A DNA stretch of 64,000 bases from IMG/VR virus record IMGVR_UViG_3300042332_000818, positions 32,001-96,000 of that record, one strand, 5' to 3'. The stretch is from a virus. The translations under genes were made by a program, and so were the position numbers. The number at the start of each line of letters is the position of its first letter. The stretch's first letter is position 1. Below, piece after piece: positions 29,665 through 46,125 of this stretch. Under the pieces are notes generated by a model that had not been told where the DNA came from, did no database searches, and saw only the letters and a list, made by a program, of their open reading frames with translations.

Positions 29665-32600
29665 ATGGCAACGTCTTGTTTTAATGTTAATGATCCTGGA
29701 TATCAGGCTTTGTTAAGTGCTTATAACGGTAATAATATTCTAGTAGATAGTCTTATTACTTCTTACCAAAAGGCTGGTAATGGAGATGCTATACCTTCTC
29801 CTGAGCAGGTTTCAGAGATGCTGAAAAACATGTATGTTGAAAAAGCAATAGACCCTGTAAAGGTTTCTTACTATCAAACAGTTGCGGATCAGTCTACAAG
29901 CCAGGCTCAACGAGATGCTGTTATTAGTGTTCTTGAGTTTACTGAAAAAACTGACTTTGATCCTACGTCTCACACTTATGTAGATAGACAAACCGGTCAG
30001 ATTTTAAAGTCTACTACAACAGCTATCAAGGGCTCTTCTAAAATAGATAACTATTTACTTAATAGAGAAATAGGTAATCTTGCTGATAGAATGCTGGAGG
30101 GTATTATTACAGGTAAAAGATTAACCGATGTTTCTTTGGATTACTTTGATGAGCAGGGTAATAAAAAGACACTAGAGGTTTCTACTGAAACTCTAAATGA
30201 TATCTGGAGTGAGATGGAAGCTGTTGTAAGAACTCATCTTGAGATGGGCTCAGTGCTTATTCCTCAAGTGGTTGTTCAAAACTTAGAAGCTGGTATTGCC
30301 GGTTCTATAGACGTGCTTGTTGTAAAAAGAAATGGAAGCATGCAGGTTCTTGATCTTAAAACATCAAAGACTTCTGTAAAAGAGAAAAAAAATAACGGTA
30401 AGATTTCTTACTACCACACTGCATACGACCTTGAGAACGATTCAATTCTTGTAGAAAAAGGTCTGGCTTCAAAGCTTACAAAACATCAGCAGCATATTCT
30501 TCAGGTGAATATTTATACTAGAATGTTGGAGGCTGCTGGTTTTAAAGTTACAGAAGCATATACTCACAGATACAAAGTTGATATTAATGAGACTGAGACA
30601 GGTATCAATGGTATTGTAGATGAAGGTCGTTCAGAGAACATGTATTATGAAGAGTCTATGCTTGCTGACGCAATCATTGCAGAAAAAACTCATTACAGTG
30701 GTAATCCGGTAGGTCAAGCATTGTTTGAAGAAGCTGACACTGAGAAATCACTACCTCAGAAAAGAGCTCAACTCTTAATAGAGAACTCAATTATTAAGCC
30801 TTTGACTATGAGATTAAAGAATCTTTCCGATATCTATCGTGAAAGAGTGAATCTCAGAGATGATAACAATAGATTGTTTGTACCAAAGGCTGAAGATACC
30901 ATTAATAAGCTGCAAGATCTTTTGTTTGTAATAGAGAAAGAGGGTAAGTCTGGTAGAGCAATACTTGCTTACTCTAGATTTCTTCGTTATGCTACGGAGG
31001 ACATGCAAAAAATCATTGACTTTCTTTCAAATAAAGAAAACGTTGAGTCTGAGAGAGCTGCCGGTATCATTACTAATGCTTCAAATTTTCTAGAAACATA
31101 TAGTGATATTCAAAGAGCTTCAGGTGAACTACGACCAGAACTTCCATTAGAGCAACAAAAGCTCTATGATAAAATGGTATTAGCTTTAAACGAGGCATTA
31201 GCTGTTGTGCATGCTGCTAAAGAACAGCATGTAAAATATATAATTAAAACCGGTACTTCTCAAAAACTTACAGATGAGGAGATTGATCAAGCTTTAAAAG
31301 AAGCTGAGACTATTTCAGGAGTTGATGCTGCGATTGGTGATCTTGATACCAGTACAGATGTACTTCTTAGAATTATTGCTAAGAGATTTAAAAGACAGTT
31401 GTTGACTGCTCAAGATAATTCTCGTGCTTTCAATAAGAGAGCTGATGAAGCTGCTGCAGATTTGATTAGACTTTCTCCAGGAAGAGTTGTAGACTATGGT
31501 TTCATGTATGAGGTTGATGCTAAAGGAGACCTTGTAGTTGTTGATCCTTATTCTACTGCATATTATGAAATGGAGGATGATCTTAGAAAAGATCTTTATG
31601 ATTCTGACGGTAAATGGATAAACTACTACGAGATTAAAGATCCCCTTTCTGCTGATCCTAAGCACATTCAACATAACAAAGAACTCTTTGAAAAAAGAGA
31701 AGCTTATAATAGATTTAGAAGAGCTGAGATTATTGAGAATGGTACGTTTAAAGATGGTGAATATCATAAGTACAATGATGAATTTAAAGCGGCAAGATCT
31801 AGATTTGAATACTTTAATGGAAGATCTTGGGTAAAGAGACCACAGGTGAGTGATAGTCAATACCGAGTATTTAGAAACAAATACTACGAGGTTCATCATG
31901 ATGTAACTCTTCCTGTTAGAAGTGGTAAAGGTTATACCGGTGTAGCTACAACTAGAACTATTGAAGTTCCTAAACGTAAGTATGCTGAACCAAGATTAGA
32001 TGCAAGAGATCCTTCCGGTAAAAGCTTTACAAACGCTAAGTATAGTATTCTGTTAAATCCTAGAACAGATCTTGAAAGAGCACAAAGTAAGTTTTATAAC
32101 TTCTATGTAAATGAAATGCAGAAGGGAGTAATGGCAAAACTTCCGGATGATGTACAAGAACGTTATAAGCATAGAGTACCTTCTTATAATGATTACAGTG
32201 AGCAGTTTGCACATATCCCTACTGTACCTCTTAGGGCTATAGTAAGAATGCTTTATAGTCTAAAGGATTTCTTTTTTGATTGGAATCTTCCTATATCTGC
32301 TGTAAGAAGAACTAAAATTGATGAAAAGGGTAGACCTGTTTCAACTTTGCCTTTGTTTATGACTGGAACATTTGATGATAATGTTCAAGAAAAAATAAAT
32401 AAAATCAATAACGAACTTTCAACTTTAAAAGAAGATCTTCTTTCTAAAAAGATTTCTTTTACTGAATATGAAAAACTCCTTAAAGATCTCAAAGAAGAAA
32501 GAGCACGATTAAATAGAAGACCTCAAAAGAATATTGTAAGTAGAGATGTTCTTAAGTCTATGAAGATATTTCACAATCAGGTTTCTATATATGAGCAAAA

Positions 32601-34152
32601 GATGGCTGCTGAAGACACCTTCCTTATGCTTAAAGAAGCTGCTACTAACAGAACTTACTACACAAGAAAGAAGTTTAACTCACTCACAGGTAAGCCTGCT
32701 TTTGAGAATGTAACTTCTACAGAAAGTTCTGCGACGGTTAAAAGGCTTGAGAAGTGGTTTAAGCAAATCTATTATGAAGAGAACTACTTTGAAGACTTGA
32801 GCGGAATGTCAAAAATTGGAAGTCTTGCTTTAAAGAAAATAGTAAGTGCTTCTTCATTAGTATATGTTGGTTACAACGTTTGGGGTAACGCTGCTAACTT
32901 GGCGTTTGGTGGTGTTGCAAACCACATTGAAGGTTTTGCCGGTGTCCATTTTAGTGCTAAAGGTTTAGCTCATGCAAGAAAGTTACTCTATACAGATTAC
33001 TTTCCTAATAAGATTCAGAAAACAATGTCTGGATTTAATGCTAATCTTGAGCTTGTTGATGATCAACCGGGATCAAAGACAGAAGCTCTTATAAGATATT
33101 TTAATATGCCTAGACACCTCATTAGTGAAGATGAGCGTGGTAATGCTAATCAAATACCTGGTAGCTACTGGTTTCAAGACGGAGGTGAATTTTTAATTCA
33201 ATCAAGTACTGGTTTAGCAATGCTTGCTAAAATTAAATTGGTCAACGAGGAGAATGGTTCTCAGACTTCTGCTCTTGATGCCTATGATTGGGATCCTGAT
33301 GCAAGGACTTTAAAGCTTAAGGATGGTGATTGGTACATAATTAATGATTACGGTGGCGGTGCTGGTGAAAAAGTTAAGTATGATGATGACCAAAAGAGAA
33401 TGGTTCAGAATTATATATACGAAGTAAACAAACAGATTCACGGTAACTACGCTGCAGAAGACAGAGTAGCAATACAAGATAATGCTATTGGTGCTGCAGC
33501 AATGCAGTTCCACAAATGGGTTTACCCTTCATTTAAAACTCACTTTAAAGGAAGATACTTTGATGAGAACCTTGGCTGGTATGAAGGAAGATATTTTAGC
33601 TTAATTAAGTTTATTGCTGCTCTTACAACGTTTGGAAATCCATCAGTGGCTTGGGCTTCTTTAGAAAAAGATCAAAAGGCTAATATTGGAAAAGTCGGTG
33701 CGCAATTAATGTTCTTTGCTTCTACTTTTATGATTGGTAATCTTATAGCGTCTTTAAAAGATTTGGGAGATGATGAGGATGATGATGAAGCTTTCTTCAC
33801 CTTTAGAAGAAGTCTTAACGGATTGTCTTTCTTGAATGACAAAGTTGGAAACGATCTAGCTTTCTTTATAAACCCTGCAGACTTCTTGACATTAAGTGAA
33901 AATCCAATTGCTTCTTTCAAGTATGCAAATCAATTTGTAGAAGCTTTTTGGAGAACTATGCAATTCTCTTACTACGGTATTGTTCAGAGCAATCAAGAAC
34001 TGCTTGAAAATAAAGAGGTGTATTATCAAAGAGGTACTAGAGCGGGACAACTCAAACTTGCAAAAGAATGGGGAGATGTTATCCCGGCTCTATACACCAT
34101 CAACCGCTGGAAAGGTTTTGATACAGTAGATTCCGATTACACCGGAAACTAA
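29665..34152 (+). CDS. Large ejection-type protein with N-terminal PD-(D/E)XK nuclease-like domain
   Basis: 1495 aa with 'IAGSIDVLVV...VLDLKTSK...QVNIY'. The helical C-terminus has 'IHGNY...MQFHKW' and hydrophobic segments. Confidence 0.7.
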   Translation: MATSCFNVNDPGYQALLSAYNGNNILVDSLITSYQKAGNGDAIPSPEQVSEMLKNMYVEKAIDPVKVSYYQTVADQSTSQAQRDAVISVLEFTEKTDFDPTSHTYVDRQTGQILKSTTTAIKGSSKIDNYLLNREIGNLADRMLEGIITGKRLTDVSLDYFDEQGNKKTLEVSTETLNDIWSEMEAVVRTHLEMGSVLIPQVVVQNLEAGIAGSIDVLVVKRNGSMQVLDLKTSKTSVKEKKNNGKISYYHTAYDLENDSILVEKGLASKLTKHQQHILQVNIYTRMLEAAGFKVTEAYTHRYKVDINETETGINGIVDEGRSENMYYEESMLADAIIAEKTHYSGNPVGQALFEEADTEKSLPQKRAQLLIENSIIKPLTMRLKNLSDIYRERVNLRDDNNRLFVPKAEDTINKLQDLLFVIEKEGKSGRAILAYSRFLRYATEDMQKIIDFLSNKENVESERAAGIITNASNFLETYSDIQRASGELRPELPLEQQKLYDKMVLALNEALAVVHAAKEQHVKYIIKTGTSQKLTDEEIDQALKEAETISGVDAAIGDLDTSTDVLLRIIAKRFKRQLLTAQDNSRAFNKRADEAAADLIRLSPGRVVDYGFMYEVDAKGDLVVVDPYSTAYYEMEDDLRKDLYDSDGKWINYYEIKDPLSADPKHIQHNKELFEKREAYNRFRRAEIIENGTFKDGEYHKYNDEFKAARSRFEYFNGRSWVKRPQVSDSQYRVFRNKYYEVHHDVTLPVRSGKGYTGVATTRTIEVPKRKYAEPRLDARDPSGKSFTNAKYSILLNPRTDLERAQSKFYNFYVNEMQKGVMAKLPDDVQERYKHRVPSYNDYSEQFAHIPTVPLRAIVRMLYSLKDFFFDWNLPISAVRRTKIDEKGRPVSTLPLFMTGTFDDNVQEKINKINNELSTLKEDLLSKKISFTEYEKLLKDLKEERARLNRRPQKNIVSRDVLKSMKIFHNQVSIYEQKMAAEDTFLMLKEAATNRTYYTRKKFNSLTGKPAFENVTSTESSATVKRLEKWFKQIYYEENYFEDLSGMSKIGSLALKKIVSASSLVYVGYNVWGNAANLAFGGVANHIEGFAGVHFSAKGLAHARKLLYTDYFPNKIQKTMSGFNANLELVDDQPGSKTEALIRYFNMPRHLISEDERGNANQIPGSYWFQDGGEFLIQSSTGLAMLAKIKLVNEENGSQTSALDAYDWDPDARTLKLKDGDWYIINDYGGGAGEKVKYDDDQKRMVQNYIYEVNKQIHGNYAAEDRVAIQDNAIGAAAMQFHKWVYPSFKTHFKGRYFDENLGWYEGRYFSLIKFIAALTTFGNPSVAWASLEKDQKANIGKVGAQLMFFASTFMIGNLIASLKDLGDDEDDDEAFFTFRRSLNGLSFLNDKVGNDLAFFINPADFLTLSENPIASFKYANQFVEAFWRTMQFSYYGIVQSNQELLENKEVYYQRGTRAGQLKLAKEWGDVIPALYTINRWKGFDTVDSDYTGN

Positions 34153-34337
34153 AGTATAACTGTAAGCTTTGCGATTAGTATCCCTATTTCAAGGGAGTAA
34201 CCGTTAGCTTCAATTATTTCTGAGGTTTCATCTTTCTGGTATCCGTAAATAACCTTTGAAAGGTTTACACCTAATAAGGTGTTATTATTACTTAGAAACT
34301 CTAAGTGGAACCAGTGATTATAACTGAATTTAAACAT
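34149..34337 (-). CDS. Small hypothetical protein
   Basis: 62-aa ATG ORF preceded by a promoter-like 12-mer that recurs at 63468. Confidence 0.55.
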   Translation of the reverse strand: MFKFSYNHWFHLEFLSNNNTLLGVNLSKVIYGYQKDETSEIIEANGYSLEIGILIAKLTVIL

Positions 34338-34358
34338 CTTTTATTATTTAAAGGGGGT

Positions 34359-34370
34359 TAAAGTTAGACA
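34359..34370 (-). promoter_or_regulatory. Putative - strand promoter element TGTCTAACTTTA
   Basis: An identical 12-mer occurs at 63468-63479. Both copies lie about 21 nt upstream of a - strand ATG and resemble the Bacteroidota -7 element TAnnTTTG. Confidence 0.5.
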
Positions 34371-34380
34371 ATTAGACTGA

Positions 34381-34401
34381 ATTTCGTATCTTATATATGA
34401 G
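34381..34401 (+). promoter_or_regulatory. Putative phage late promoter (ATTTCGTATCTTATATATGAG)
   Basis: The motif recurs in intergenic gaps before + strand operons at 507, 9139, 13355, 40528 and 57130. Confidence 0.55.
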
Positions 34402-34444
34402 ACAAAACCAACAACTTTTATGAAACCTATAATGCTATCCGCAC

Positions 34445-36373
34445 ATGAAAAAGTTTTGGTGGAGTCTCTCGACTTCTCTTATATCTTTAAGCGTTCTTGC
34501 TCAAAACGGTGCTAATGAAATACTTGTAGCACCCGCAAGTAACGACCCTTATATCCTTGTAGATACACTATTTACACTGGATAACTATCCGGCAACGTAC
34601 ACAGATGTATACGTTCACTTTGCTAACCCTACCGCTACTCCGGTAAAGGCTGTACAATTCCGACTCTTCTATGACAACGCTAAGTTTTCAAACGCTGTCA
34701 TGTTTTGGGGACCGACCGCACAACCTATTACGGATAAGTACGGTTCTTATTTTACAAATGCTGGCTACATTAACGTAGTAGCATCATATACTGGTTCTAC
34801 ACCGAACTTTGACTGGGCAGACGGGGCTATGTTTAAGCTTCGTCTTTTTCATTCTAGTGCATACAATGGTATAGCCACTTCTATGGCAATTTCAGGATCT
34901 AGTAATTATCCTGCTCTTGCAACCATTGGTAATGGTACTGACGTAAACCTTGAGCTCTATAGTTACGGTGGTGCTTTCCAGATGACCCCAATGACGTTTC
35001 CTGTAAAGGTTAGAAACGCTGATGGTTCACCCGCTCAAGGTGTTTGGTTCTCTGCTAAGAAGAGACTTAAGTCTACACCTCTTGCTACTTGGCAACCAAT
35101 TGATACTGATTCAACTAATATGGCTGGTCTAGTAGAGTTCACTCACCCGCTTGATACAAACTACTGGCACATGAAGATCTCTGCACAAACAGATTCTATG
35201 TCTGATGGTGGAGCTTTGACTATTGTAGATGCGTACAAGTTGGCTAACCACGTATCTTCTCAAGATACTCTAAGTGGTATTGAATACTACGAAGGTGATA
35301 TTAACGAAAGCCAGTCTGTAACTGTATCAGATGCATTTGCTGTATTCAATAGACTAGCTCTTAACCAATCAAACTGGGATCAATTATTTACGGGAGTAAA
35401 TAACGTATCAGTTCTTTGGCCTTCTCAGTGGGCAACTGCAAATGCTGCTACAACTGCACCTAACTGGACAAACGTACCTAGACTATATGTAATTGATTCT
35501 ATTGTAAATAGTCTTGATTCTCTAGAACCTTACATCTATGTAGTAGGTGATGCTACAACTTCAGGATACAATAATCCTGCAACTATTCTTGCTAAGATGG
35601 CAAACCCTGGATCTGGTACAGATTACATTCTTGATCCGGCAGTATACTTCTCTAATAAGCCAGACTCAATTGAATTTAGAATTCCTAAGCTTATTGTAAC
35701 AACTGATAACTACATTGATGTACCTGTGACAGTGTACACGTTTGGTAATAAGGTTGGAGCTCTGCAGATGGGAATCCAGTATGATACTGCGGTATTTGAG
35801 TTTGTGTCTCTGAATATGGGAGATTCTGCTTCAAAGTGGACATCATTTATGACGTTTAAAGATGGTGGTGTATTCTGGGCTGGTCACGAAGATAAGATGA
35901 ACCCTGCTCTTCTTCAAGGACCGTCTCAAGTATTTACTTTCAGATTTGCAGTTAAGTCTATTCTTGGATGGAGAACTTCTCCTCTTGCAATCTTTAACAA
36001 AGCTGCAGGTGATGAGAATGCTTATGATATGTCTATTCGTCCTTCACCAAATGATGGCTCTGTAATCAACGGTAAAGCTGATATGGATGAGGAGACTAGA
36101 GCTCTGCTCACTGGATTTATTACTTACCCTAACCCTGTAACTGATCTTACTAATCACTGGTTGATTGCAGACTTTTACATTGAAGACTTTACAAACTTTA
36201 GCGGTCTGGTTCTTAACTCTCAAGGCCAGATTGTTAAGTCAGTTTCTAGTAAAATCACTGAAAGAGGTTTCCAAACTCAAGGTATTTGGTTTGGTGATCT
36301 TCCTAACGGTATTTACATCGTGAAGCTGACAACTAACGATAGAGAGAAATTTTACAAAATCATTAAATATTAA
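34445..36373 (+). CDS. Secreted cohesin-dockerin-cohesin protein with T9SS-type C-terminal domain
   Basis: Signal peptide SVLA|Q. Cohesin-like 'VKAVQFRLFYD' and 'IDVPV...VGALQMGIQYD'. Dockerin-like 'LTIVDAYKLANHV...GDINESQSVTVSDAFAV'. CTD-like 'YPNPV...LPNGIYIVKL...KIIKY'. Confidence 0.8.
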   Translation: MKKFWWSLSTSLISLSVLAQNGANEILVAPASNDPYILVDTLFTLDNYPATYTDVYVHFANPTATPVKAVQFRLFYDNAKFSNAVMFWGPTAQPITDKYGSYFTNAGYINVVASYTGSTPNFDWADGAMFKLRLFHSSAYNGIATSMAISGSSNYPALATIGNGTDVNLELYSYGGAFQMTPMTFPVKVRNADGSPAQGVWFSAKKRLKSTPLATWQPIDTDSTNMAGLVEFTHPLDTNYWHMKISAQTDSMSDGGALTIVDAYKLANHVSSQDTLSGIEYYEGDINESQSVTVSDAFAVFNRLALNQSNWDQLFTGVNNVSVLWPSQWATANAATTAPNWTNVPRLYVIDSIVNSLDSLEPYIYVVGDATTSGYNNPATILAKMANPGSGTDYILDPAVYFSNKPDSIEFRIPKLIVTTDNYIDVPVTVYTFGNKVGALQMGIQYDTAVFEFVSLNMGDSASKWTSFMTFKDGGVFWAGHEDKMNPALLQGPSQVFTFRFAVKSILGWRTSPLAIFNKAAGDENAYDMSIRPSPNDGSVINGKADMDEETRALLTGFITYPNPVTDLTNHWLIADFYIEDFTNFSGLVLNSQGQIVKSVSSKITERGFQTQGIWFGDLPNGIYIVKLTTNDREKFYKIIKY

Positions 36374-36378
36374 AAACC

Positions 36379-36783
36379 ATGAGCGAAGAAACTCAAGAAG
36401 GAGGACTGTCAGGACTTAAGAAAACTATCTTAGGTGTTGCAGGAACAGCAGTAACCGGATTTGGAATCTGGGCTACTACTAATATCAATAAGATCTTTGG
36501 TGTTGAAGAAGAGTCTGAAGTAAAGACTGAGCAAGTTGCTGAAGCTCCTGCCTCTGCAGGACAAGCAGCCGCACCAATTGTTCTAAACATTGATAACTCT
36601 GCTACTAATAATGCTTCTGCTGGAGGTGGTGGTACAAACACTATCATTAAGGAAACCGTACGTGAAGTACCAGTTGCACAACCGGCTGCAGCTGCTCCTG
36701 TAGAAGAGAAGAAAGAAACTACTGCAGAGCGTATTGCAAGACTTAAGAAAGAAAAAGCTGATAAAGATGGAGCACAGAACTAG
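36379..36783 (+). CDS. Single-pass membrane protein with low-complexity tail
   Basis: Hydrophobic 'TILGVAGTAVTGFGIWAT', Ala/Pro/Glu-rich linkers and a charged C-terminus. Confidence 0.7.
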   Translation: MSEETQEGGLSGLKKTILGVAGTAVTGFGIWATTNINKIFGVEEESEVKTEQVAEAPASAGQAAAPIVLNIDNSATNNASAGGGGTNTIIKETVREVPVAQPAAAAPVEEKKETTAERIARLKKEKADKDGAQN

Positions 36784-37513
36784 AAAAGAAGAACTAATGG
36801 CAATGGTTGCCAGTGTTCTCGGTATTGCAATGATTATTGCTTTTCTGATTACTGTCGGAGGAGTAGCAACATCTTGTTCTTCATCAATTTCTACTACACA
36901 ATACCAAGCTGAATTTGAAAAAGCTCAACCTCTAAATACATTTCCTGTATTCACTGGTGAGAAAAAAGTAATTCAGATTGCCAATCTTAACGTTAATAAG
37001 GAACTGTGGGAGATGTTTCCAGAACTTAGAGACAAGAGAGTTGGTATGGGTGTTTCTAACCGTATTGTAGAAAACTTTGAGGTGACTCAGAGATTCTTGT
37101 ATGCGGAAGAAAAGGAAGCCATTGTTAATCAAATGCTTGATGTATGGGAGAAAGATCTCAATGACATGGGTGACGGTAGAACCAAGCTCAACGTGGGCTC
37201 GGTAGTTCTGCCTAAGTACATTGTCTATGCAGAGATCTATGAATTCTCTACGTCTTATGGGGAAACTTACGATAAAGGAAAACTTCAGAAGACTAATACT
37301 ACTATCATCGGTATTCAAATTAAGATGGTTAATGTAGATAACTCTCAATATATTGTTGCATCTGGTCAAGGAACTTCTACTCAGGTTGGTGAGGGCTTCT
37401 TTAAGAATCCCACTATGGGCTTTGATCAGTCAACGGTGGGTGTAGCTACACAACGTGCGTTAGAGGTTGCCACGGTAAACCTTATGAAGCGCATGGACCA
37501 ATATGGATGGTAA
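36767..37513 (+). CDS. CsgG-like (curli transport pore family) lipoprotein
   Basis: Likely ATG at 36767. A hydrophobic signal ends in lipobox-like VATS|C. 'GMGVSNRIVENFEVTQRF', 'YIVYAEIYEFS' and 'IGIQIKMVNVDNSQYIVASGQG' match the CsgG/TolB-N fold pattern. Confidence 0.75.
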   Translation: MEHRTRKEELMAMVASVLGIAMIIAFLITVGGVATSCSSSISTTQYQAEFEKAQPLNTFPVFTGEKKVIQIANLNVNKELWEMFPELRDKRVGMGVSNRIVENFEVTQRFLYAEEKEAIVNQMLDVWEKDLNDMGDGRTKLNVGSVVLPKYIVYAEIYEFSTSYGETYDKGKLQKTNTTIIGIQIKMVNVDNSQYIVASGQGTSTQVGEGFFKNPTMGFDQSTVGVATQRALEVATVNLMKRMDQYGW

Positions 37514-38993
37514 ATTCAAAATATTATTATTATTTCTGCTGGGATGTATAGGGTTGCAAGCACAAACGTTTACTTACAACTACACGGATCCTTGTACGGG
37601 AATGCTACAGACGGTCACCCTGTCTCAGACATCTGGGACAGTGGTGATGTTTTATGCTGGGCAGTACCAAACTTTTACAGCAGCTCAACTTCAGTCAGGA
37701 GCTTATGAAAACTGGATTGCTCAAATTAATACTCAGTTTCCTCCAGGTAGCAACCCTTGTGCAGGTAACGGTTCTTCTAACGCTAATAATAGTAACGCAA
37801 ACATCGGTACAAACACAGCAAATAGTGTTAGTGGCATTGTCTCTATTAGCACTTCCATTGCGGGAAGCCTCGGTGGAGGTAGCGTAAGTTCAGGTTCAAT
37901 ATCAACAGGTAATACAAATGGATCATCGTCATCTTCTGGTAGCAGTTCTAATGATAACACTAACAATAACAGTGGGTCTTCTGGGTCTTCAGGTGGGTCA
38001 TCCTCTGGTTCCTCTGGTAGCTCTGGCTCTAATTCTGGTGGAACTAGTGGTGGTTCTAGTTCTGGCGGTGGTAACACCGGAGGATCAGGAAGTAGCTCGG
38101 GTGGTTCGTCTGGCTCATCAGGTGGAGGTAACTCAGGTAGACCAGACAGTGGTGGTAGTACCGGAGGAGGTACTGGAACATCAGGTAGTAATCCTGACGG
38201 AGGAGCAACGGGTGGTACGTCTGAAAGCACTGGAGGAGCTAGCTCTACTGGGGGAACTTCAGAGAATACAACAACAGCATCTGGAGGAGAATCAGAAAGC
38301 TCCGGAGACTCCGGTGGTGGAGGAGGTGGTGGTAATAAACCAAAACAAAAGCAAGAAAAAATAGGTAGAGGTTCTCTGATTGGTTCAGGGGATTTTGTTA
38401 TTATCCGTAATGGTAATGACATTAGTAAGCGTAATGATAATGTACGCTTCAATGCGTCAGTTACTCACGTTAACACCAAGCAAAACTTTATCAAGGGTGT
38501 CAATCTGAACTATACCACAGGAGAGAATGTAGCTAACCTTACTCTGTATGGGTCCTATAAGAAAAAAGATTTCATGGCGGTGGGGTCCAATTCTTTCATG
38601 ACTAATTTTAAATCTGATTGGTTTAACACGGTAACTATTCTAGGTGCACAGAAACTTTGGAAGTTTACCTTCATGGGAGGTAGCAACTTTACATTGGGTC
38701 AGATAGGTAAATCTGGTTTCCAGAACTGGTCTATGGTAGGTGGTGCGTTCACTAATTTCAAAGGAGGTAAGACTGTATCTGCTAACATAATGGCTCTAGG
38801 TGTATACTCACCTTATATCTTTTATTACGAAGGACAATGGTACAAGTCTGGCTTTCTTATTGTACCTCTAGCAAACGTTGACTTTAAACTTACCGATAAG
38901 TTTAAGTGGAGTATCTCATTCTCAGGAGCATACCAATACAACGCTGACATTCTTAACTTTCAGTTATCAACCGGTACAAAGATGTTGCTATGA
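37503..38993 (+). CDS. Secreted protein with Gly/Ser-rich stalk and probable C-terminal outer-membrane beta-barrel
   Basis: Signal GLQA|Q, a small Cys-pair domain, a long G/S/T/N-rich linker, then alternating amphipathic strands ending 'FQLSTGTKMLL'. Confidence 0.7.
   Translation: MDGKFKILLLFLLGCIGLQAQTFTYNYTDPCTGMLQTVTLSQTSGTVVMFYAGQYQTFTAAQLQSGAYENWIAQINTQFPPGSNPCAGNGSSNANNSNANIGTNTANSVSGIVSISTSIAGSLGGGSVSSGSISTGNTNGSSSSSGSSSNDNTNNNSGSSGSSGGSSSGSSGSSGSNSGGTSGGSSSGGGNTGGSGSSSGGSSGSSGGGNSGRPDSGGSTGGGTGTSGSNPDGGATGGTSESTGGASSTGGTSENTTTASGGESESSGDSGGGGGGGNKPKQKQEKIGRGSLIGSGDFVIIRNGNDISKRNDNVRFNASVTHVNTKQNFIKGVNLNYTTGENVANLTLYGSYKKKDFMAVGSNSFMTNFKSDWFNTVTILGAQKLWKFTFMGGSNFTLGQIGKSGFQNWSMVGGAFTNFKGGKTVSANIMALGVYSPYIFYYEGQWYKSGFLIVPLANVDFKLTDKFKWSISFSGAYQYNADILNFQLSTGTKMLL
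37860..38335 (+). repeat. Low-complexity Gly/Ser-coding region
   Basis: Runs of GGT/TCT/AGT/TCA codons encoding SSGSSGGSS-type repeats. Confidence 0.85.
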
Positions 38994-40111
38994 GAAAGTT
39001 TATTTTAAGTCTAATTTTTATACTGTCGGTATCAATCCAGACGTATTCTCAAACTATTACCCTGACTCCAATTGGAACTCAAGATGTTAGTGGTATACCG
39101 GTTACTGTAGACCATTATGTCACTACAGCTAATGGTACTACATCTGTAAAAATATATAGAACTCACTACGGAAACGGCAACACTTCTCAGTATGCAATAT
39201 ATCCTGGTACTCGTACTGAGATGAATAAGCTGTTTAATACTGCTTATGCTGCTACAACTTTATGGTGGAGTGGTAATATGAGTGCTAACTCTTCTTTAAA
39301 CTTCTATCAATTTACTACACTTACTAATGCTGGAGCTAGTGTACCTCCTAATGGGGATTACTATGCCACCGAAGTAACGTTCACTTTTGTTGCTGCAGAA
39401 ACAGGGACCTATTCTTTTGGTCTTACCTCTGATGATGGTTCTGATCTAGCAATAAACGGAACCTCTGTAGTAGAATGGTATGGTGGCAAGGGTACCGGAC
39501 AGTATAAATATGGTAACTATTCAATGGTTGCAGGAACTCAGTATACAGTGGTAGCTCGCATGCAAGAATACGGTGGAGGAGACGGACTAGTATTGGTATG
39601 GAGAAGACCATCACAAGGTTCTTGGTCTTTACAATTATCAGAGATTGGTGTTACCTCTAGTTCTTGGGTGAGTCAGGGGACCAAGAATACAAATGCTTCC
39701 GGACAAGTATCATGGACTAATTCTTCTAACTGGCCTTATAGAGTGACGGTAGATGTCACTAATAATTATCATACTCTTACAGATGCGGATATGAACTATC
39801 TCATGTATAAGAAGGCAGGATTATCTCCACTGCAATCATGGGACTTCTATACTTGCGATATAAATAATTCTACTGTGTTTGATTATGATGATATAGTTTT
39901 TGGATATGTCATCTGGTCCCAAGGTCATCTACACAATAAGTATATTTTTACTAAAGCTCAGCGAGATGCTATAATTACATCACCGTCTACAAATTTTTAT
40001 ACTACTTACTTCCCTGTTCAAACATTGATTGTGGAAAATCAAAATCTGTTTTACATAATGGGGACAGGTAAACATCAAACTACTATTAATAACTTAAATA
40101 GAATACAATGA
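38990..40111 (+). CDS. Secreted PA14-domain protein with degenerate dockerin-like tail
   Basis: Signal QTYS|Q. PA14 signature 'ETGTYSFGLTSDDGSDLAING...QEYGGGDGLVLVW'. C-terminal 'LTDADMNYL...CDINNSTVFDYDDI'. Confidence 0.8.
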   Translation: MRKFILSLIFILSVSIQTYSQTITLTPIGTQDVSGIPVTVDHYVTTANGTTSVKIYRTHYGNGNTSQYAIYPGTRTEMNKLFNTAYAATTLWWSGNMSANSSLNFYQFTTLTNAGASVPPNGDYYATEVTFTFVAAETGTYSFGLTSDDGSDLAINGTSVVEWYGGKGTGQYKYGNYSMVAGTQYTVVARMQEYGGGDGLVLVWRRPSQGSWSLQLSEIGVTSSSWVSQGTKNTNASGQVSWTNSSNWPYRVTVDVTNNYHTLTDADMNYLMYKKAGLSPLQSWDFYTCDINNSTVFDYDDIVFGYVIWSQGHLHNKYIFTKAQRDAIITSPSTNFYTTYFPVQTLIVENQNLFYIMGTGKHQTTINNLNRIQ

Positions 40112-40527
40112 ACCCCATTTTGATAATGTGCTTTTACGTTGCTAGCGTAAGCTCTCAAGATAATCTAGCAGGTATTGATAACCAGAAGTTCACTTTTGGT
40201 CTCAAGCAAATGACTGAAGATATTCTTCTACAACAAGGAAATCCTTTGTGTGATCAGTCTTCAGAAGGTGCAAGTCCGGTGTATGTAACAGTCACTGACA
40301 TCAAAGCTCCAACTCAAGGTATACGTCTAGGTCCGTTTGAATTTAAACAAAAGAAAACCATCGTAGAGGTAGACATTGCAATTGGTTCTAAAGTCTATCA
40401 CGGAGTAGGAAAAGCTAATACAAATGTTGCTGCAACCATGATGCAGCTTCAGGATGAAAACCTTGCATTTGAAAGAACAGAATTTTCTGTTGCTGTTAAG
40501 AAGGCAATAGTTGATGCTCTGGACTAA
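40108..40527 (+). CDS. Small alpha/beta protein, possibly a CsgG/LptE-fold paralog
   Basis: The pattern 'FGLKQMTEDILL...VYVTV...VEVDI...GVGKA...FSVAVKKAI' parallels the topology of the CsgG-like ORF. It is the last gene of the cassette. Confidence 0.45.
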   Translation: MNPILIMCFYVASVSSQDNLAGIDNQKFTFGLKQMTEDILLQQGNPLCDQSSEGASPVYVTVTDIKAPTQGIRLGPFEFKQKKTIVEVDIAIGSKVYHGVGKANTNVAATMMQLQDENLAFERTEFSVAVKKAIVDALD

Positions 40528-40571: not shown

Positions 40572-40835
40572 ATGTTTAATCAATTAAAGAAGAAGTTTAT
40601 GGCTTTTTGGGATATTTTCAAGGACAATAATGAGTGGAACGAGAAGACTATTGTTGGTTTCTTGTCATTCGCTGTAATGAGCATTACAGCTATTGCCGAT
40701 GTAGTAACAGGTATTATGGGCAAAGAGCTCATCATCTCTGATACAATTTTTAATTCGTTTGTAATAATCACACTGGGAGCTTTCGGTATTGCTGAAGCTG
40801 GAAAGATCTTCGGTGGTAAAAAAGAAGAAGAATGA
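40572..40835 (+). CDS. Putative holin
   Basis: 87 aa with two transmembrane segments and a charged C-terminus, overlapping the endolysin start. Confidence 0.65.
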   Translation: MFNQLKKKFMAFWDIFKDNNEWNEKTIVGFLSFAVMSITAIADVVTGIMGKELIISDTIFNSFVIITLGAFGIAEAGKIFGGKKEEE

Positions 40836-41446
40836 GTCTAAAGAGTCTACAAACCAAAGCGGGTGTTACGGCAGATGGAGCATTTGGTCCGGGCACTCTA
40901 AAAGCAGGAATGGCTTACTACAAGTTTACACCTGAACGTGCTGCACATTTCTTTGCACAAACAGCTCACGAGACCGGAGGCTTTAAAGCTTTCTCTGAGA
41001 ATCTGAACTACGGTGCTAAAGGATTGCTTGGTATTTTTAAAAAGTACTTCCCTACAGAAGCTCTAGCTGCTCAGTATGAGCGTAAGCCAGAGAAGATTGC
41101 AAACCGTGTGTATGCATCTCGTATGGGTAATGGTGATGAAGCATCTGGTGACGGATGGAAGTACCGTGGACGTGGTGCTCTGCAATTGACCGGTAAGTCT
41201 AACTACCAAGCATTTGCTGATTACTTGAAGAAGCCAGAGATCATGACTAACCCTGATCTGGTTGCTACTGAGTATGCATTTGAATCTGCTATCTTCTTCT
41301 TTGATCGTAATAAGTTGTGGGATATCTGTGATAAAGGTGTAAACAACGACACTATTCTTGCTCTTACAAAGAGAATCAATGGAGGTACTCACGGTCTAGA
41401 GGATCGTAAAGAAAAAACCCTGAAGTACTACGGATGGGTAAAGTAA
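40832..41446 (+). CDS. Endolysin, glycoside hydrolase family 19, with short N-terminal PG-binding motif
   Basis: Motifs 'AHFFAQTAHETGGF...ENLNY', 'YRGRGALQLTGKSNY' and 'TKRINGGTHGLEDR'. N-terminal 'ADGAFGPGT'. Confidence 0.92.
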   Translation: MSLKSLQTKAGVTADGAFGPGTLKAGMAYYKFTPERAAHFFAQTAHETGGFKAFSENLNYGAKGLLGIFKKYFPTEALAAQYERKPEKIANRVYASRMGNGDEASGDGWKYRGRGALQLTGKSNYQAFADYLKKPEIMTNPDLVATEYAFESAIFFFDRNKLWDICDKGVNNDTILALTKRINGGTHGLEDRKEKTLKYYGWVK

Positions 41447-44127: not shown

Positions 44128-46125
44128 TTAAAATAAAAGTGAAAGTTGAGAACCACGAGCACTTTCTATTTCTCTCGTAATTCTCTGTAAGTAATACTTA
44201 TAATTGATATCATACTCCTCAAAAGGCTTTTCTTCGTACTGGTTAAATACAGTAACGACCCAAGAGCCGGCATCAACACTGATGATTTTACCCGTCTCTT
44301 TATGCATTTTATGCATTTTGCAACCTTTATTGGATAAATAGTAACGAGTGATCTTGTGCATGTTCTGCACAGTCTCCTTACCATTTTCTACACAAACAAT
44401 CTGTACAGCGTACGTACTGTTTGCTTTTACTCCACCGCAGAAATCATAAATGTTCTTATTAGTCATTATATAATCTTCGGGAAGTACATCGTGCACAAAG
44501 TAATTGTAAACAGCTTTTGATATCACAAGATGTGATTTGTTCTTGTGAAGAGCTAGATTAGAAAATTCAAATCTACCCTTGCACTTAGTAGCTGCATATG
44601 CAAACCCTTCAGGGAGAACCTTATAGACATAATCCGGATTAGATTCTTTCATCTTCTTCCAGGAGTCATGATCTATAAACTTCCAATCATATACTGCTAT
44701 GTAGTTGTTTACATCCGCTAAGATTAGCTTCTGGTACTTATCGTGTTCAAGTTGGAGATTAGTAATCTTCTCCCACTCTGCACATACCTGCATGTATATA
44801 TCTACTTTGTCTCTAGGTATGATTGTCTCAAGACCATCTGTGTTTTGCATCAGAGGTATAGACTCTGGAATTGCAACGGATATCATCTCGTACAGCATAG
44901 TTAGACTAAGCTGACCGTTGATGGTAATCTTCATTGTAAGTTCCGGATCATACAGGAAACTGTGCTTATCATTACTCAAACCATAGGTAGAGTTTAGAAT
45001 AAGCTTATAGACATAGTTTAGCGGATCTTTCTTAGGTATCTTCTTTCTCTCTTCAAAGAACCATTCATACTGCTCACTAAAAGCTTGAGCATCTAAGTGA
45101 CCCGGAGACCACTTATTACGAATAGCTAGATTTGGATAGAAAGATGTTACGTCAGAAGTCATGATGATTAAATCACTGGTGGATTCATATACACCACTTG
45201 CACGACAACCGTGAATGCCACCAAGACCATAGTCAGTCTTGACACCATTATTCAAAATACTATGTTTGAAACCGTTCTTAGTGTTTTCTGGATCAATGAT
45301 TACCGTTTTGAACTTCTCAAGCACCGCTTTGAATATTGGTGTTTGAAACTGTACATAGGGTAAGATGATATCATTAACTCTAATTAGGGTTCTCTTCTGA
45401 GTCGGAAGAGCTTTGACATCTTTGGGATGCATCTTAAGCTTCTGACCCAAGAAGTATGCAAACAACTCCTTACTGATTCTTGGTTCTGAAGCACTCAATA
45501 GATTCACCTTGTAAGTTCTACTCAAGTTCATACGAAGCTTGATTAGATCTTTACTTAACAGAACAATCTTTTTGGTTGACTTGACATCGTTTACACAATA
45601 CTTCAAGGTCTCTCTGATTTGATCTCCTGTATCTATTAGAGCATTAAAGGATATGCTTGACTCTTTGATATTGTACCAGTCCATTGTATACTGGATCCAT
45701 TTAAGAGAAGAACTCTTTGCAGGATTATCCCAGTGATTCAATTTAAATACATCAATCTGTTTTAAAGTCTGCTTAAACTCAGGATACGGAGTTCTAAACC
45801 CCGGATTATCCTGACCGTGTATAAGAGCATTTGAAAACATCCAAGCTTCACGGCATATCTCTATTGGCTTCTTGCTTAAGAAGTCAGCTTCATTTTGAAT
45901 TAGAAACTCAATTACCTGAGAATCGTAAGATAGATTGTTAAAGCCGAAGAATATACTACCAGCTTTACCTTCTTGCTTAAGGAACTTTATCATGTCATCG
46001 TAATCATTACGATAACTAGGGTGAATCATGTAAGTTATTACATCATCATCCTCAACTCCTTCAAGAACAATACAAAAGAAGTTTTCAAATACTTCAATGT
46101 CATAAACCCAAAACTTCTTTTTCAT
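44128..46125 (-). CDS. polB: DNA polymerase, family B (crAss-type)
   Basis: Exonuclease motifs YDIE and FNNLSYD. Polymerase motifs SDVTSFYPN, KLILNSTYG and QNTDG. Confidence 0.92.
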   Translation of the reverse strand: MKKKFWVYDIEVFENFFCIVLEGVEDDDVITYMIHPSYRNDYDDMIKFLKQEGKAGSIFFGFNNLSYDSQVIEFLIQNEADFLSKKPIEICREAWMFSNALIHGQDNPGFRTPYPEFKQTLKQIDVFKLNHWDNPAKSSSLKWIQYTMDWYNIKESSISFNALIDTGDQIRETLKYCVNDVKSTKKIVLLSKDLIKLRMNLSRTYKVNLLSASEPRISKELFAYFLGQKLKMHPKDVKALPTQKRTLIRVNDIILPYVQFQTPIFKAVLEKFKTVIIDPENTKNGFKHSILNNGVKTDYGLGGIHGCRASGVYESTSDLIIMTSDVTSFYPNLAIRNKWSPGHLDAQAFSEQYEWFFEERKKIPKKDPLNYVYKLILNSTYGLSNDKHSFLYDPELTMKITINGQLSLTMLYEMISVAIPESIPLMQNTDGLETIIPRDKVDIYMQVCAEWEKITNLQLEHDKYQKLILADVNNYIAVYDWKFIDHDSWKKMKESNPDYVYKVLPEGFAYAATKCKGRFEFSNLALHKNKSHLVISKAVYNYFVHDVLPEDYIMTNKNIYDFCGGVKANSTYAVQIVCVENGKETVQNMHKITRYYLSNKGCKMHKMHKETGKIISVDAGSWVVTVFNQYEEKPFEEYDINYKYYLQRITREIESARGSQLSLLF

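What the first reader, a model, noticed from the sequence alone, without database searches (positions are those of the whole stretch)
34381..40527. Phage-encoded six-gene envelope cassette: cohesin/dockerin T9SS scaffold, PA14-dockerin adhesin, CsgG-like pore and stalked beta-barrel
Seen: six tightly coupled genes with their own promoter-like motif sit between the ejection genes and the holin/endolysin. At least five of the products have a signal peptide, lipobox or TM helix, so they target the host envelope rather than the virion. Known: cohesin-dockerin pairs assemble cellulosome-type complexes, CTD-bearing proteins exit through the Bacteroidota T9SS, CsgG forms an outer-membrane oligomeric pore, and PA14 domains bind glycans. 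Inference: the phage builds a modular surface complex on the infected cell, with a scaffold that docks a swappable lectin, anchored or exported by its own OM proteins. Possible roles are adhesion or aggregation of infected cells, receptor masking, or vesicle-linked release. No curlin (CsgA/B) repeats are present, so this is not a curli operon. I know of no characterised phage system like it, but I cannot check novelty here.
Basis: partly seen in the sequence, partly recalled or inferred. Interest (0 to 1): 0.92.

Follow-up and report, generated by a model that had tools for sequence, protein, structure and literature searches.

The report
Phage envelope cassette with swappable lectins
A lake-water phage of Flavobacterium-type bacteria carries, next to its cell-bursting genes, six tightly packed genes for exported proteins that probably hang exchangeable sugar-binding proteins on the infected cell's outer envelope; many phages share the block, but nobody has tested what it does.

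Summary
The six genes exist as described: same strand, gaps of 5 nt or overlaps of 4-17 nt, at the end of the late operon just before holin and endolysin.

Domain calls:
- Confirmed: cohesin, T9SS type A sorting domain and PA14 (above curated cut-offs); an outer-membrane beta-barrel at the c4 C-terminus (fold search).
- Supported only through relatives: the lipoprotein c3 as a CsgG-superfamily member. A pore is not shown.
- Below threshold: "dockerin".
- Not supported: the promoter motif.

Conservation and context:
- 53 of 58 IMG/VR loci keep the order c1-c2-c3-c4-[variable lectin genes]-c6. The other 5 are cut by contig ends.
- 47 of 58 loci also hold the holin and/or endolysin.
- The cultured Flavobacterium phage immuto carries the block (gp013-gp019).
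- c6 is a half-size paralogue of c3.
- Bacterial MAGs hold an operon of c3-like, stalked 410-aa and second c3-like genes, a possible source.
- One sister phage lacks the cassette, so it is accessory.

Best reading (0.45): a late-made envelope complex that displays exchangeable lectins. Its purpose is untested.

This scan noted the cassette before on other DNA (41 notes, at least 38 genomes). My five paper searches found no description of the whole block. Partial precedents are the pelagimyophage CsgG/CsgF clusters and "Cryophage" T9SS cargo.

The parts
34153..34444 (+). Intergenic region upstream of c1.
   Evidence: Promoter-like sites are not above shuffles, and the region is not conserved in 10 loci.
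34445..36373 (+). c1, a 642-aa scaffold protein. Layout: N-terminal signal-like segment; N-domain (about 22-178); beta-sandwich plus dockerin-like module (about 180-310; nt 35192-35359 for residues 250-305); cohesin (nt 35702-35962); T9SS type A sorting domain (nt 36125-36364).
36379..36783 (+). c2, 134 aa. It has a conserved N-terminal 50 residues with a Gly/Thr-rich, moderately hydrophobic segment (residues 16-33), then a low-complexity Ala/Pro-rich tail with a charged end. Candidate inner-membrane tether.
   Evidence: No family hit.
36767..37513 (+). c3, a 248-aa lipoprotein with an invariant lipobox Cys37. Divergent member of the CsgG/LpoB-like superfamily.
   Evidence: No direct CsgG HMM hit.
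37503..38993 (+). c4, 496 aa. Layout: signal peptide; small two-Cys N-domain (residues 22-90); conserved hydrophobic helix (about 98-123); Gly/Ser-rich linker (about 125-285); C-terminal outer-membrane beta-barrel (about 286-496, nt 38358-38990).
38990..40111 (+). c5, a 373-aa secreted lectin. A PA14 domain (nt 39347-39622) sits in a shared frame made of an N-terminal strand (residues about 19-44) and a C-terminal beta-sandwich plus dockerin-like module (residues about 215-373, nt 39632-40108). This is the variable slot of the cassette.
40108..40527 (+). c6, 139 aa, with a short N-terminal hydrophobic segment. It is a half-size paralogue of the C-terminal half of the c3 fold.
   Evidence: No family hit.
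40572..40835 (+). Holin-like 87-aa protein with two hydrophobic helices and a charged C-terminus. It is a neighbour of the cassette and in some loci lies inside it, between c1 and c2.
   Evidence: No family hit.
40832..41446 (+). Endolysin (GH19-type).
   Evidence: Glyco_hydro_19, 35.1 bits; phrog_181, E 2.9e-63.

Best explanation
The cassette is an accessory, late-expressed envelope module of phages that infect T9SS-bearing Bacteroidota. All six products leave the cytoplasm.

Proposed roles:
- c1 is taken across the outer membrane by the host's type IX secretion system through its type A sorting domain. It serves as a cohesin-bearing scaffold.
- The gene or genes in the variable slot (here the PA14 protein c5) are lectins built on a common beta-sandwich plus dockerin-like frame. 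They attach to that scaffold.
- c3 (a CsgG-fold lipoprotein), its half-size paralogue c6 and the stalked outer-membrane barrel c4 form an outer-membrane base. c2 may tether it to the inner membrane.
- This base resembles, and may derive from, an uncharacterised cellular operon of FCB-group and other bacteria.

The outcome would be an infected cell, and then its debris, coated with phage-chosen glycan binders at the time of lysis. The coat would either capture neighbouring host cells or mask glycan receptors on debris so that progeny are not wasted.

Shown: gene order, export signals, domain families, conservation, the variable lectin slot and the linkage to lysis genes.
Inferred: late timing, surface location, cohesin-dockerin docking, the c3/c4/c6 assembly and the purpose.
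For: DOMAINS AND FOLD.
- Cohesin, T9SS type A CTD and PA14 all score above curated cut-offs.
- The c4 C-terminus is a barrel by fold.
- c3 has a lipobox and CsgG-superfamily kinship.
- c6 aligns with the C-terminal half of the c3 family: hhalign probability 86%, E 5.4e-6, against a profile of 59 sequences. A bacterial c3 paralogue also hits c6 at E 4.4e-6.

CONSERVATION.
- 53 of 58 IMG/VR loci keep c1-c2-c3-c4-c6 in order; the other 5 are cut by contig ends.
- All 21 loci show the parts that their DNA covers.
- The block occurs in the unrelated cultured myophage immuto, among replication genes.

VARIABLE SLOT.
- It carries PA14, Lectin_C or Laminin_G_3 in 9 of the 17 proteins scanned, and no family above cut-off in the other 8. 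The signal peptide and C-terminal module are kept.
- The chassis is homologous to c1 residues 211-302.

OTHER.
- immuto splits c1 into gp014 and gp015, each with its own signal peptide.
- No paralogue of any cassette protein is found among the other ORFs of 60 aa or more called from an ATG, tail genes included.
- Sister phage L085 lacks the block but keeps holin-like and lysozyme-like genes.
- Bacterial relatives of c3 sit beside T9SS-CTD cargo (L091) and a PA14 protein (L100).
Against: - Dockerin membership fails Pfam's cut-off: 13.9 bits, half a model, in c1 only.
- The chassis profile finds nothing in the PDB.
- Across 9 loci, chassis divergence does not co-vary with cohesin divergence once c3 divergence is controlled for: partial r -0.04, with 1109 of 2000 permutations as high.
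- The lectins have no T9SS tag, and no route across the outer membrane is shown for them.
- The c3 counterpart of CsgG's first membrane hairpin is about 6 residues shorter, polar and invariant. A CsgG-type channel is therefore doubtful.
- c4 lacks a terminal aromatic residue.
- The near-constant adjacency to holin and endolysin (47 of 58 loci) fits a role in lysis just as well.
- There is no expression, localisation or virion-proteome data.
Confidence: 0.45

Rival explanations
1. Lysis or egress accessory. The c2 + c3 + c4 + c6 set acts at the outer membrane at the end of infection, as a spanin substitute, an outer-membrane weakening device or a gated channel that times lysis. The cohesin and lectin parts would be secondary.
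For: - A holin and/or endolysin homologue lies in 47 of 58 loci.
- The holin sits between c1 and c2 in L029-L031.
- c2 and c3 overlap by 17 nt, like overlapped spanin pairs.
- No spanin-like pair is seen beside holin and endolysin in the window.
- A lysis-timing role was proposed in print for phage CsgG/CsgF (PMC9004378, passages read).
Against: - c3 is a 211-aa folded CsgG-fold domain, not a short proline-rich o-spanin.
- The periplasmic part of c2 is low-complexity, and its membrane segment is weak.
- A role in lysis gives no reason for a 642-aa T9SS-tagged cohesin protein or a hypervariable lectin slot.
- The one sister phage without the cassette (L085) shows no spanin pair in that place either, so the 'slot' argument found no support here (n=1).
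- In immuto the block lies about 6 kb from the endolysin, among replication genes.
Confidence: 0.2
2. Superinfection exclusion by interference with the host's T9SS or gliding surface. The CTD-tagged c1, with bound lectins, occupies or re-dresses the secretion and adhesin apparatus that Flavobacterium phages use as a receptor.
For: - c1 has a type A CTD.
- Papers listed link gliding/T9SS mutations to phage resistance in Flavobacterium (PMC9804748; title and abstract only seen).
- The cassette is dispensable.
Against: - The position at the end of the late operon suggests late, not early, expression (inference).
- Nothing ties the lectins to T9SS components.
- This role would not need the c3/c4/c6 base.
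Confidence: 0.1
3. Released or periplasmic binders that act after lysis. They might coat virions or bind particles or polysaccharides in the water, rather than being displayed on the living cell.
For: - The lectins lack any outer-membrane export tag.
- From my own knowledge, not from a call: many type A CTD cargos of Flavobacterium are released in soluble form.
- Cohesin-dockerin docking could occur outside the cell.
Against: - This leaves the lipoprotein, the barrel and the tether unexplained.
- No cohesin or dockerin-like module was found elsewhere in the genome.
Confidence: 0.1
4. Ordinary virion (tail-fibre or decoration) proteins whose N-termini only look like signal peptides.
For: - The cassette follows the virion genes on the same strand.
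- Lectin-type domains are common in receptor-binding proteins (own knowledge).
Against: - c3 has a lipobox Cys, c1 a T9SS sorting domain and c4 a membrane barrel.
- In immuto the block lies among replication genes, not tail genes.
- The PHROGs scan gave no hit for any of the six proteins.
Confidence: 0.05

Closest known systems
Syntenic block gp013-gp019 of Flavobacterium phage vB_FspM_immuto_2-6A (NC_055915; annotated only as lectin C-type, hypothetical and cohesin domain-containing proteins)
   Same: - gp014+gp015 = c1 (30% and 25% identity).
- gp016 = c2, gp017 = c3 (36%), gp018 = c4 (35%), gp019 = c6 (37%).
- The C-terminal part of gp013 resembles the c5 chassis (27% identity, E 1.8e-4).
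Source.
   Different: - The lectin is a C-type lectin and lies in front of the block.
- c1 is split into two secreted proteins.
- The block lies among replication and nucleotide-metabolism genes of a 160-kb myophage, about 6 kb from the endolysin.
- No function is published. The paper search found 16 papers naming the phage. Among the 10 titles and abstracts shown, none is about these genes.
Phage-encoded CsgG/CsgF ('curli operon', type VIII secretion) clusters of pelagimyophages and Methylophilales phage Melnitz (PMC7029224, PMC9004378; passages read)
   Same: - A phage carries a CsgG-family outer-membrane lipoprotein with small exported partners and no curlin subunits.
- The function is unknown. 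'Sibling capture' of host cells and lysis timing were proposed.
   Different: - Those proteins are clear CsgG and CsgF homologues in phages of Proteobacteria. Here c3 fails the CsgG HMM and no CsgE, CsgF or curlin family matches.
- Cohesin, the T9SS tag, lectins and the stalked barrel are absent from the published clusters as described in the passages read.
'Cryophage' T9SS cargo genes (Bellas et al. 2020, PMC7468147; passages read)
   Same: Phage-encoded proteins with T9SS type A sorting domains, one of them a PA14 protein. They lie in hypervariable islands and are presumed to be secreted through the host's system.
   Different: - There the PA14 protein itself carries the CTD. Here only the cohesin scaffold does.
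- The paper text never contains 'cohesin' or 'lectin' (0 occurrences each), and the passages shown describe no multi-gene cassette.
Cellulosome-type and non-cellulosomal cohesin-dockerin assemblies (anchoring scaffoldin plus dockerin-bearing subunits)
   Same: - A cohesin domain scores above threshold in an anchored scaffold.
- Several exchangeable subunits share one small C-terminal module with an EF-hand-like D-x-N-x-S...D loop.
   Different: - The dockerin HMM cut-off is not reached.
- Only one Ca-loop looks intact in c5 (read by eye).
- The subunits are lectins, not enzymes.
- Anchoring is by a T9SS CTD in a diderm host.
- The system is encoded by a virus.
Uncharacterised cellular operon of FCB-group and other bacterial MAGs: CsgG-like lipoprotein (about 230 aa), a signal-peptide protein of about 410 aa with N-domain, linker and C-terminal region ending in RF, then a second CsgG-like protein (about 217 aa)
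   Same: - The order and architecture match c3 - c4 - c6.
- The c3 relatives are 29-40% identical, and some pass Pfam CsgG.
- One second copy hits c6.
- Some loci are adjacent to T9SS-CTD cargo or a PA14 protein.
   Different: - Homology of the 410-aa family to c4 is not shown (hhalign probability 17%, E 0.0014).
- No cohesin or lectin chassis is present.
- The function is unknown, and some loci carry caspase-domain proteins instead.

Membership tests
Cohesin (PF00963) | Match to the family HMM above the gathering score | tested here: met
   c1 420-506, 37.1 bits against 24.1. Six-frame search: 31.1 bits. Weak PDB hit to a cellulosome-anchoring cohesin, 3ul4_A, E 0.15.
Cohesin (PF00963) | Binds a dockerin partner | not testable with these tools
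   Needs a binding assay. Only sequence-level hints are available.
Dockerin type I (PF00404) | Match to the family HMM above the gathering score, with two 22-residue Ca-binding repeats | tested here: not met
   Only c1 284-310 matches, at 13.9 bits against 22.9, covering model positions 2-30 of 57. Nothing in c5 at E<=10. Nearest ESM Atlas clusters carry Dockerin_1 in 40% and 19% of members, at scores of 0.79, which is a lead only.
Dockerin type I (PF00404) | EF-hand-like loop with acidic or polar residues at positions 1, 3, 5, 9 and 12, followed by a helix | tested here: inconclusive
   Read by eye from the alignments. c1 has D285, N287, S289, T293 and D296, of which D285, N287 and D296 are invariant. 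c5 has D-I-N-N-S-T-V-F-D-Y-D-D, with D77 and D93 of A4 invariant. The first repeat is degenerate in c5.
T9SS type A cargo | C-terminal sorting domain (PF18962 / TIGR04183) at the extreme C-terminus | tested here: met
   c1 561-640/641: 28.9 bits against 27, and 30.9 against 23. Weak PDB hits to T9SS CTDs 8glj_D and 8glk_D.
T9SS type A cargo | N-terminal Sec signal peptide, and a host that has a T9SS | tested here: inconclusive
   The N-terminus MKKFWWSLSTSLISLSVLAQ looks like a signal peptide but falls below my hydropathy threshold; no predictor was run. The host of this phage is unknown. The only cultured carrier infects Flavobacterium sp. LMO8.
CsgG/HfaB family (PF03783) | Match to the family HMM | tested here: not met
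   No hit for c3 or for any of 12 close homologues at E<=10, nor in the six-frame search of the genome.
CsgG/LpoB-like superfamily | Transitive or profile homology to CsgG | tested here: met
   22 of the 61 relatives scanned pass PF03783's cut-off, and 34 of 61 hit at E<=0.05. The 61 were the longer ones picked from 150 listed, of 198 hits. Profile A7 hits CsgG structures (3x2r, 4q79, 6l7a and others) at E 4.3e-6 over positions 3-180. ESM Atlas CsgG clusters score 0.94.
CsgG secretion channel | N-terminal lipobox cysteine | tested here: met
   An invariant Cys37 follows A/I-T-S/G in 12 of 12 homologues.
CsgG secretion channel | Two amphipathic transmembrane hairpins that build the 36-strand barrel | tested here: inconclusive
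   In the alignment to CsgG, the TM1-equivalent is about 6 residues shorter. In c3 it is polar and invariant (S163, Y164, E166, Y168, K170, G171, K172, K175-T179). The alignment stops before TM2. The c3 model was too poor to use (pLDDT 46).
Curli / type VIII system | CsgE, CsgF or curlin-repeat partners | tested here: not met
   No Pfam, PHROG or NCBIfam hit of those families in c2, c4, c5 or c6.
PA14 (PF07691) | Match above the gathering score | tested here: met
   c5 120-211, 28.5 bits against 24. Also found in slot genes of L003, L005 and L014.
Outer-membrane beta-barrel protein | Closed antiparallel barrel fold | tested here: met
Outer-membrane beta-barrel protein | C-terminal aromatic residue (beta-signal) | tested here: not met
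   c4 and 11 homologues end in ...TGTK-x-L-L/ML. The bacterial 410-aa family ends in RF or GF.
Classical autotransporter (type Va) | Autotransporter beta-domain family match, with a helix directly before a 12-strand barrel | tested here: inconclusive
   No Pfam family hit. NalP, AIDA-I, EstA and EspP barrels are among many equal-scoring barrel matches. The conserved helix (98-123) lies about 170 residues before the barrel.
Two-component spanin | i-spanin with an N-terminal TM and a coiled-coil periplasmic domain; short proline-rich o-spanin lipoprotein; overlapping genes beside holin and endolysin | tested here: not met
   The genes do overlap (17 nt) and c3 is a lipoprotein. However, c3 is a 211-aa folded domain, and c2 has a weak hydrophobic segment and a low-complexity tail. 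There are no PHROG spanin hits.

The most novel reading that the evidence does not exclude
Phages of Bacteroidota carry a self-contained, horizontally mobile 'lectin display kit'.
- A scaffold hijacks the host's type IX secretion. Through a cohesin / dockerin-like contact it carries interchangeable lectins outward, possibly piggy-backing through the translocon as a folded complex.
- The scaffold is mounted on an outer-membrane base (CsgG-fold ring, half-ring and stalked barrel) that may have been captured from a still uncharacterised envelope operon of FCB-group bacteria.
- The kit is made at lysis, to capture neighbouring hosts or to blind receptor-bearing debris.
This would be a new class of viral manipulation of the host surface and a natural cellulosome-like system in a virus.
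Probability: 0.3. Interest if true: 0.85.

Novelty: new variant of a known kind. Interest (0 to 1): 0.72.

Why it matters
- If the reading holds, a widespread group of aquatic phages spends about 5% of its genome re-dressing the host envelope with sugar binders of its own choice. That would bear on how phages find hosts in dilute water, avoid loss to debris, or exclude rivals.
- It would be the first cohesin-dockerin-type assembly in a virus and the first viral use of T9SS as an assembly line.
- It would point to an unstudied cellular envelope system (CsgG-like / stalked barrel / CsgG-like).
- It can be tested directly, because a cultured phage-host pair (immuto on Flavobacterium sp. LMO8) carries the block.

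Tried and rejected
- STRUCTURE OF c3. Mean pLDDT was 46 with a 12-row alignment, too poor for fold search.
- Complex prediction, c1 cohesin (405-550) with the c5 chassis (not accepted; one search run; result). No answer: score 0.00, and the partner's own fold was uncertain. This is neither for nor against binding.
- PDB PROFILE SEARCHES for c3 close homologues, c6 and the chassis gave nothing meaningful.
- c6 AGAINST THE 12-SEQUENCE c3 PROFILE. Probability 1.8%. The relation appeared only with the 59-sequence profile.
- c1 N-DOMAIN AGAINST THE c1 COHESIN. Probability 1.7%, E 0.028. A second cohesin is not shown.
- c4 AGAINST THE BACTERIAL 410-aa FAMILY. Probability 17%. Homology is not shown.
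- CO-VARIATION OF CHASSIS AND COHESIN. None beyond phylogeny, n=9 loci, with L014 left out because it has two chassis genes.
- DNA SEARCH OF PHAGE ISOLATES. No match. Protein searches found only the four immuto records.
- FIRST genome contigs SCAN with close c3 patterns. Nothing found.
- PADLOC. No hit.
- 'SPANIN SLOT' LEAD. The one cassette-less sister found (L085) shows no spanin pair there.
- EXPRESSION. No RNA holder is listed. Two runs labelled RNA-Seq are 'probably DNA' and gave only short contigs. This says nothing about transcription.
- PAPER SEARCHES for the whole cassette found no description. The library lacks most subscription journals. No supplements were opened.

Full report
WHAT IS THERE. 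The window is bases 32001-96000 of a 119-kb IMG/VR virus record that CheckV rates complete. Near-identical DNA occurs in lake-water and wastewater metagenomes from 13 studies, two of which may be the source. One long + strand block of genes runs from before the window to about 42.5 kb. Its members include matches to PHROG 'virion structural protein' families and giant ORFs of 1567, 4492 and 1495 aa.

At its end lie six ORFs, c1-c6, at 34445-40527. Spacing is a 5-nt gap, then overlaps of 17, 11, 4 and 4 nt. They are followed by a two-helix 87-aa holin-like gene and a GH19-type endolysin (phrog_181, E 2.9e-63). The observation of six tightly coupled genes in that position is correct.

The 'own promoter-like motif' is not supported. 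Sigma-70-like sites number 27 against 21.7 +/- 5.3 in shuffles, and the 120 nt upstream of c1 are not conserved among 10 loci. In L013, c1 follows the holin by 4 nt.

DOMAIN CALLS.
- c1 carries a cohesin (37.1 bits, cut-off 24.1) and a T9SS type A sorting domain (Pfam 28.9 against 27; TIGR04183 30.9 against 23). PDB sequences of T9SS CTDs and a cellulosome-anchoring cohesin appear as weak hits.
- c5 carries PA14 (28.5 against 24).
- The Dockerin_1 HMM matches only c1 284-310, at 13.9 bits and for half the model, below its 22.9 cut-off. It matches nothing in c5. By eye, both proteins have an EF-hand-like D-x-N-x-S...D loop followed by a helix, with invariant acidic positions. 'Dockerin' is therefore a resemblance, not a demonstrated membership.
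- c1 residues 211-302 and c5 residues about 221-307 are homologous to each other (hhalign probability 75%, E 2.6e-5). Scaffold and lectins thus share a beta-sandwich plus dockerin-like module.

c3 (CsgG-LIKE).
- c3 has an invariant lipobox cysteine (A/I-T-S/G-C, 12 of 12).
- It does not match Pfam CsgG even at E<=10.
- A profile of c3 homologues finds 198 representative clusters at E<=0.001 among 1.84 billion proteins. I scanned 61 of the longer ones among the 150 listed. Of these, 22 pass Pfam CsgG's cut-off and 34 hit at E<=0.05. Some are fused to caspase or Ser/Thr-kinase domains.
- A 51-sequence family profile with c3 as first row hits E. coli CsgG structures at E 4.3e-6, from the lipobox to profile position 180.
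- The ESM Atlas places CsgG/HfaB clusters nearest among named ones (0.94).
- c3 is therefore a divergent member of the CsgG/LpoB-like superfamily.
- 'Pore' is not shown. The counterpart of CsgG's first membrane hairpin is about 6 residues shorter and, in c3, polar and invariant. That looks more like a binding surface than a lipid-facing strand. The c3 model was too poor to help (pLDDT 46).

c6 AND c4.
- c6 (residues 58-138) aligns with the C-terminal half of the c3 family (153-236) at hhalign probability 86%, E 5.4e-6, when a 59-sequence profile is used. With 12 close sequences it did not align. A bacterial c3 paralogue also hits c6 (E 4.4e-6). c6 is a half-size paralogue of c3.
- c4 has a signal peptide, a small two-Cys domain, a conserved hydrophobic helix, a Gly/Ser-rich linker of about 160 residues and a C-terminal region predicted as 12-14 long strands.

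CONSERVATION.
- Searching IMG/VR with c4 gave 21 loci and with the c3 alignment 58 loci.
- Of the 58, 53 hold c1-c2-c3-c4-c6 in that order. The other five are cut by contig ends. The loci were retrieved through c3, and some contigs are near-duplicates, so these are loci, not independent lineages.
- c3 stays 65-100% identical while the neighbouring 1495-aa virion gene drops to 27%. Host contigs range from about 9 to 228 kb.
- Between c4 and c6 lie one to three genes that keep the signal peptide, an N-terminal strand (c5 residues about 19-44) and the C-terminal module, but differ in the middle. Of the 17 slot proteins scanned, 9 carry PA14, C-type lectin or C-type lectin plus Laminin_G_3, and 8 carry no family above cut-off.
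- Among 50,697 phage records, only the four Flavobacterium phage immuto records carry the block. There gp013 is the lectin, gp014+gp015 = c1, gp016 = c2, gp017 = c3, gp018 = c4 and gp019 = c6. The block lies among replication genes.
- immuto gp015 (cohesin + CTD) has its own signal peptide. c1 therefore exists as two proteins there, a fusion/fission hint that the dockerin-like-bearing half and the cohesin half act together.

RELATION TO LYSIS AND DISPENSABILITY.
- A holin87 and/or endolysin homologue lies in 47 of 58 loci. It sits after c6, before c1, or, in L029-L031, between c1 and c2.
- Of two distant sisters found through the upstream virion gene, L084 has the cassette with five extra small genes between c1 and c2. 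L085 has none, only holin-like and lysozyme-like genes, with no spanin-like pair.
- The block is thus accessory.
- No cassette protein has a paralogue among the other ORFs of 60 aa or more called from an ATG.

CELLULAR RELATIVES.
- A first scan of 185,579 species genomes with close patterns found nothing. A second scan, with a broader alignment, found 16 loci in MAGs.
- Three of them (Flavobacterium, Sediminibacterium and a Bacteroidetes bin) are phage-like versions with an endolysin.
- The rest come from KSB1, Ignavibacteriales, Rhodothermales, Cloacimonadota, Chitinivibrionales, Nitrospinota and others. They show a c3-like lipoprotein, often followed by a signal-peptide protein of about 410 aa with the same layout as c4 (N-domain, conserved hydrophobic stretch, acidic linker, C-terminal region ending in RF) and a second c3-like protein.
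- In single cases these sit beside T9SS-CTD cargo, a PA14 protein or caspase-domain proteins.
- Homology of the 410-aa family to c4 is not shown (probability 17%).
- This is a plausible cellular source for the c3-c4-c6 base, itself uncharacterised.

WHAT IT MOST LIKELY DOES. I commit, at 0.45, to an envelope module that displays exchangeable lectins.
- c1 exits by the host T9SS.
- Lectins dock on it through the shared module.
- c3, c6 and c4, with c2 perhaps as a tether, form the outer-membrane base.
- The coat appears around lysis.
- Its purpose could be capture of neighbouring hosts, in the spirit of the 'sibling capture' proposed for pelagimyophage CsgGF (PMC7029224), or masking of receptors on debris. 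This is open.

Against this reading:
- The dockerin call is sub-threshold.
- Chassis and cohesin show no co-variation (partial r -0.04, n=9).
- The lectins have no known route across the outer membrane.
- The lysis linkage fits a rival in which the base acts in egress (0.2).
- Other rivals are T9SS- or receptor-directed exclusion (0.1), post-lysis soluble binders (0.1) and plain virion proteins (0.05).

KNOWN PRECEDENTS.
- Phage CsgG/CsgF clusters (PMC7029224, PMC9004378) and phage T9SS cargo including a PA14 gene (PMC7468147) are published, all without a tested function. I read passages of these three papers only.
- Five full-text searches found no description of this cassette. Subscription journals and supplements were not covered.
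- This scan noted the same cassette earlier on other DNA: 41 notes in at least 38 genomes. Those notes gave me the leads to the CsgGF papers, to the second CsgG-fold protein and to the spanin-slot idea. I checked each here.

VERDICT. This is a real, widespread and apparently undescribed accessory module built from known parts. It is a new variant of phage-encoded envelope and secretion cassettes, with the mechanism inferred and the function unknown. Interest 0.72.

Noticed in passing
window 16182-29660 (+) and 29665-34152 (+): Giant ORFs of 4492 aa and 1495 aa lie directly upstream of the cassette. The 4492-aa ORF has no PHROG hit. The 1495-aa ORF has only a weak PD-(D/E)XK nuclease-like match (E 0.0028). 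They are probably internal or ejection proteins.
   Followed up: partly
L084:15009-16943: In a distant sister phage, five small genes (116, 67, 196, 156 and 86 aa) are inserted between c1 and c2 of an otherwise complete, more divergent cassette.
   Followed up: no
L008:10614-11408, L013:10900-11727, L014:11355-12167, L016:11266-12084, L018:12020-12838, L020:10726-11553: A conserved gene of about 270 aa (N-terminus ...AKNRDRAYKP...) follows c6 in several loci but is absent from this window. Its family was not determined.
   Followed up: no
L090:4403-9071 and L093:4572-8971: A reduced variant of the cassette occurs in Flavobacterium and Sediminibacterium MAG contigs. It has a c1-like protein of about 590 aa ending in ...KLTGYNNF, a small lipoprotein, a c2-like and a c3-like gene, and a short 139-185-aa protein in place of c4.
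   Followed up: no
L096:3482-7243, L097:5405-7081; proteins P0176, P0182, P0203, P0261, P0212, P0225: Bacterial relatives of c3 are fused to, or sit beside, caspase (Peptidase_C14) domains or Ser/Thr protein kinase domains. This suggests that the CsgG-like module also serves as an envelope anchor in unrelated systems.
   Followed up: no
window 37733-38452 (-) and 37918-38364 (+): Long 'ORFs' of 239 and 148 aa lie on other frames over the Gly/Ser-rich linker of c4. They are by-products of the low-complexity coding sequence, not genes.
   Followed up: partly
window 44128-46125 (-): The DNA polymerase (phrog_1252) is at most 33% identical to that of any listed isolated phage. This phage lineage therefore has no close cultured relative.
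   Followed up: partly
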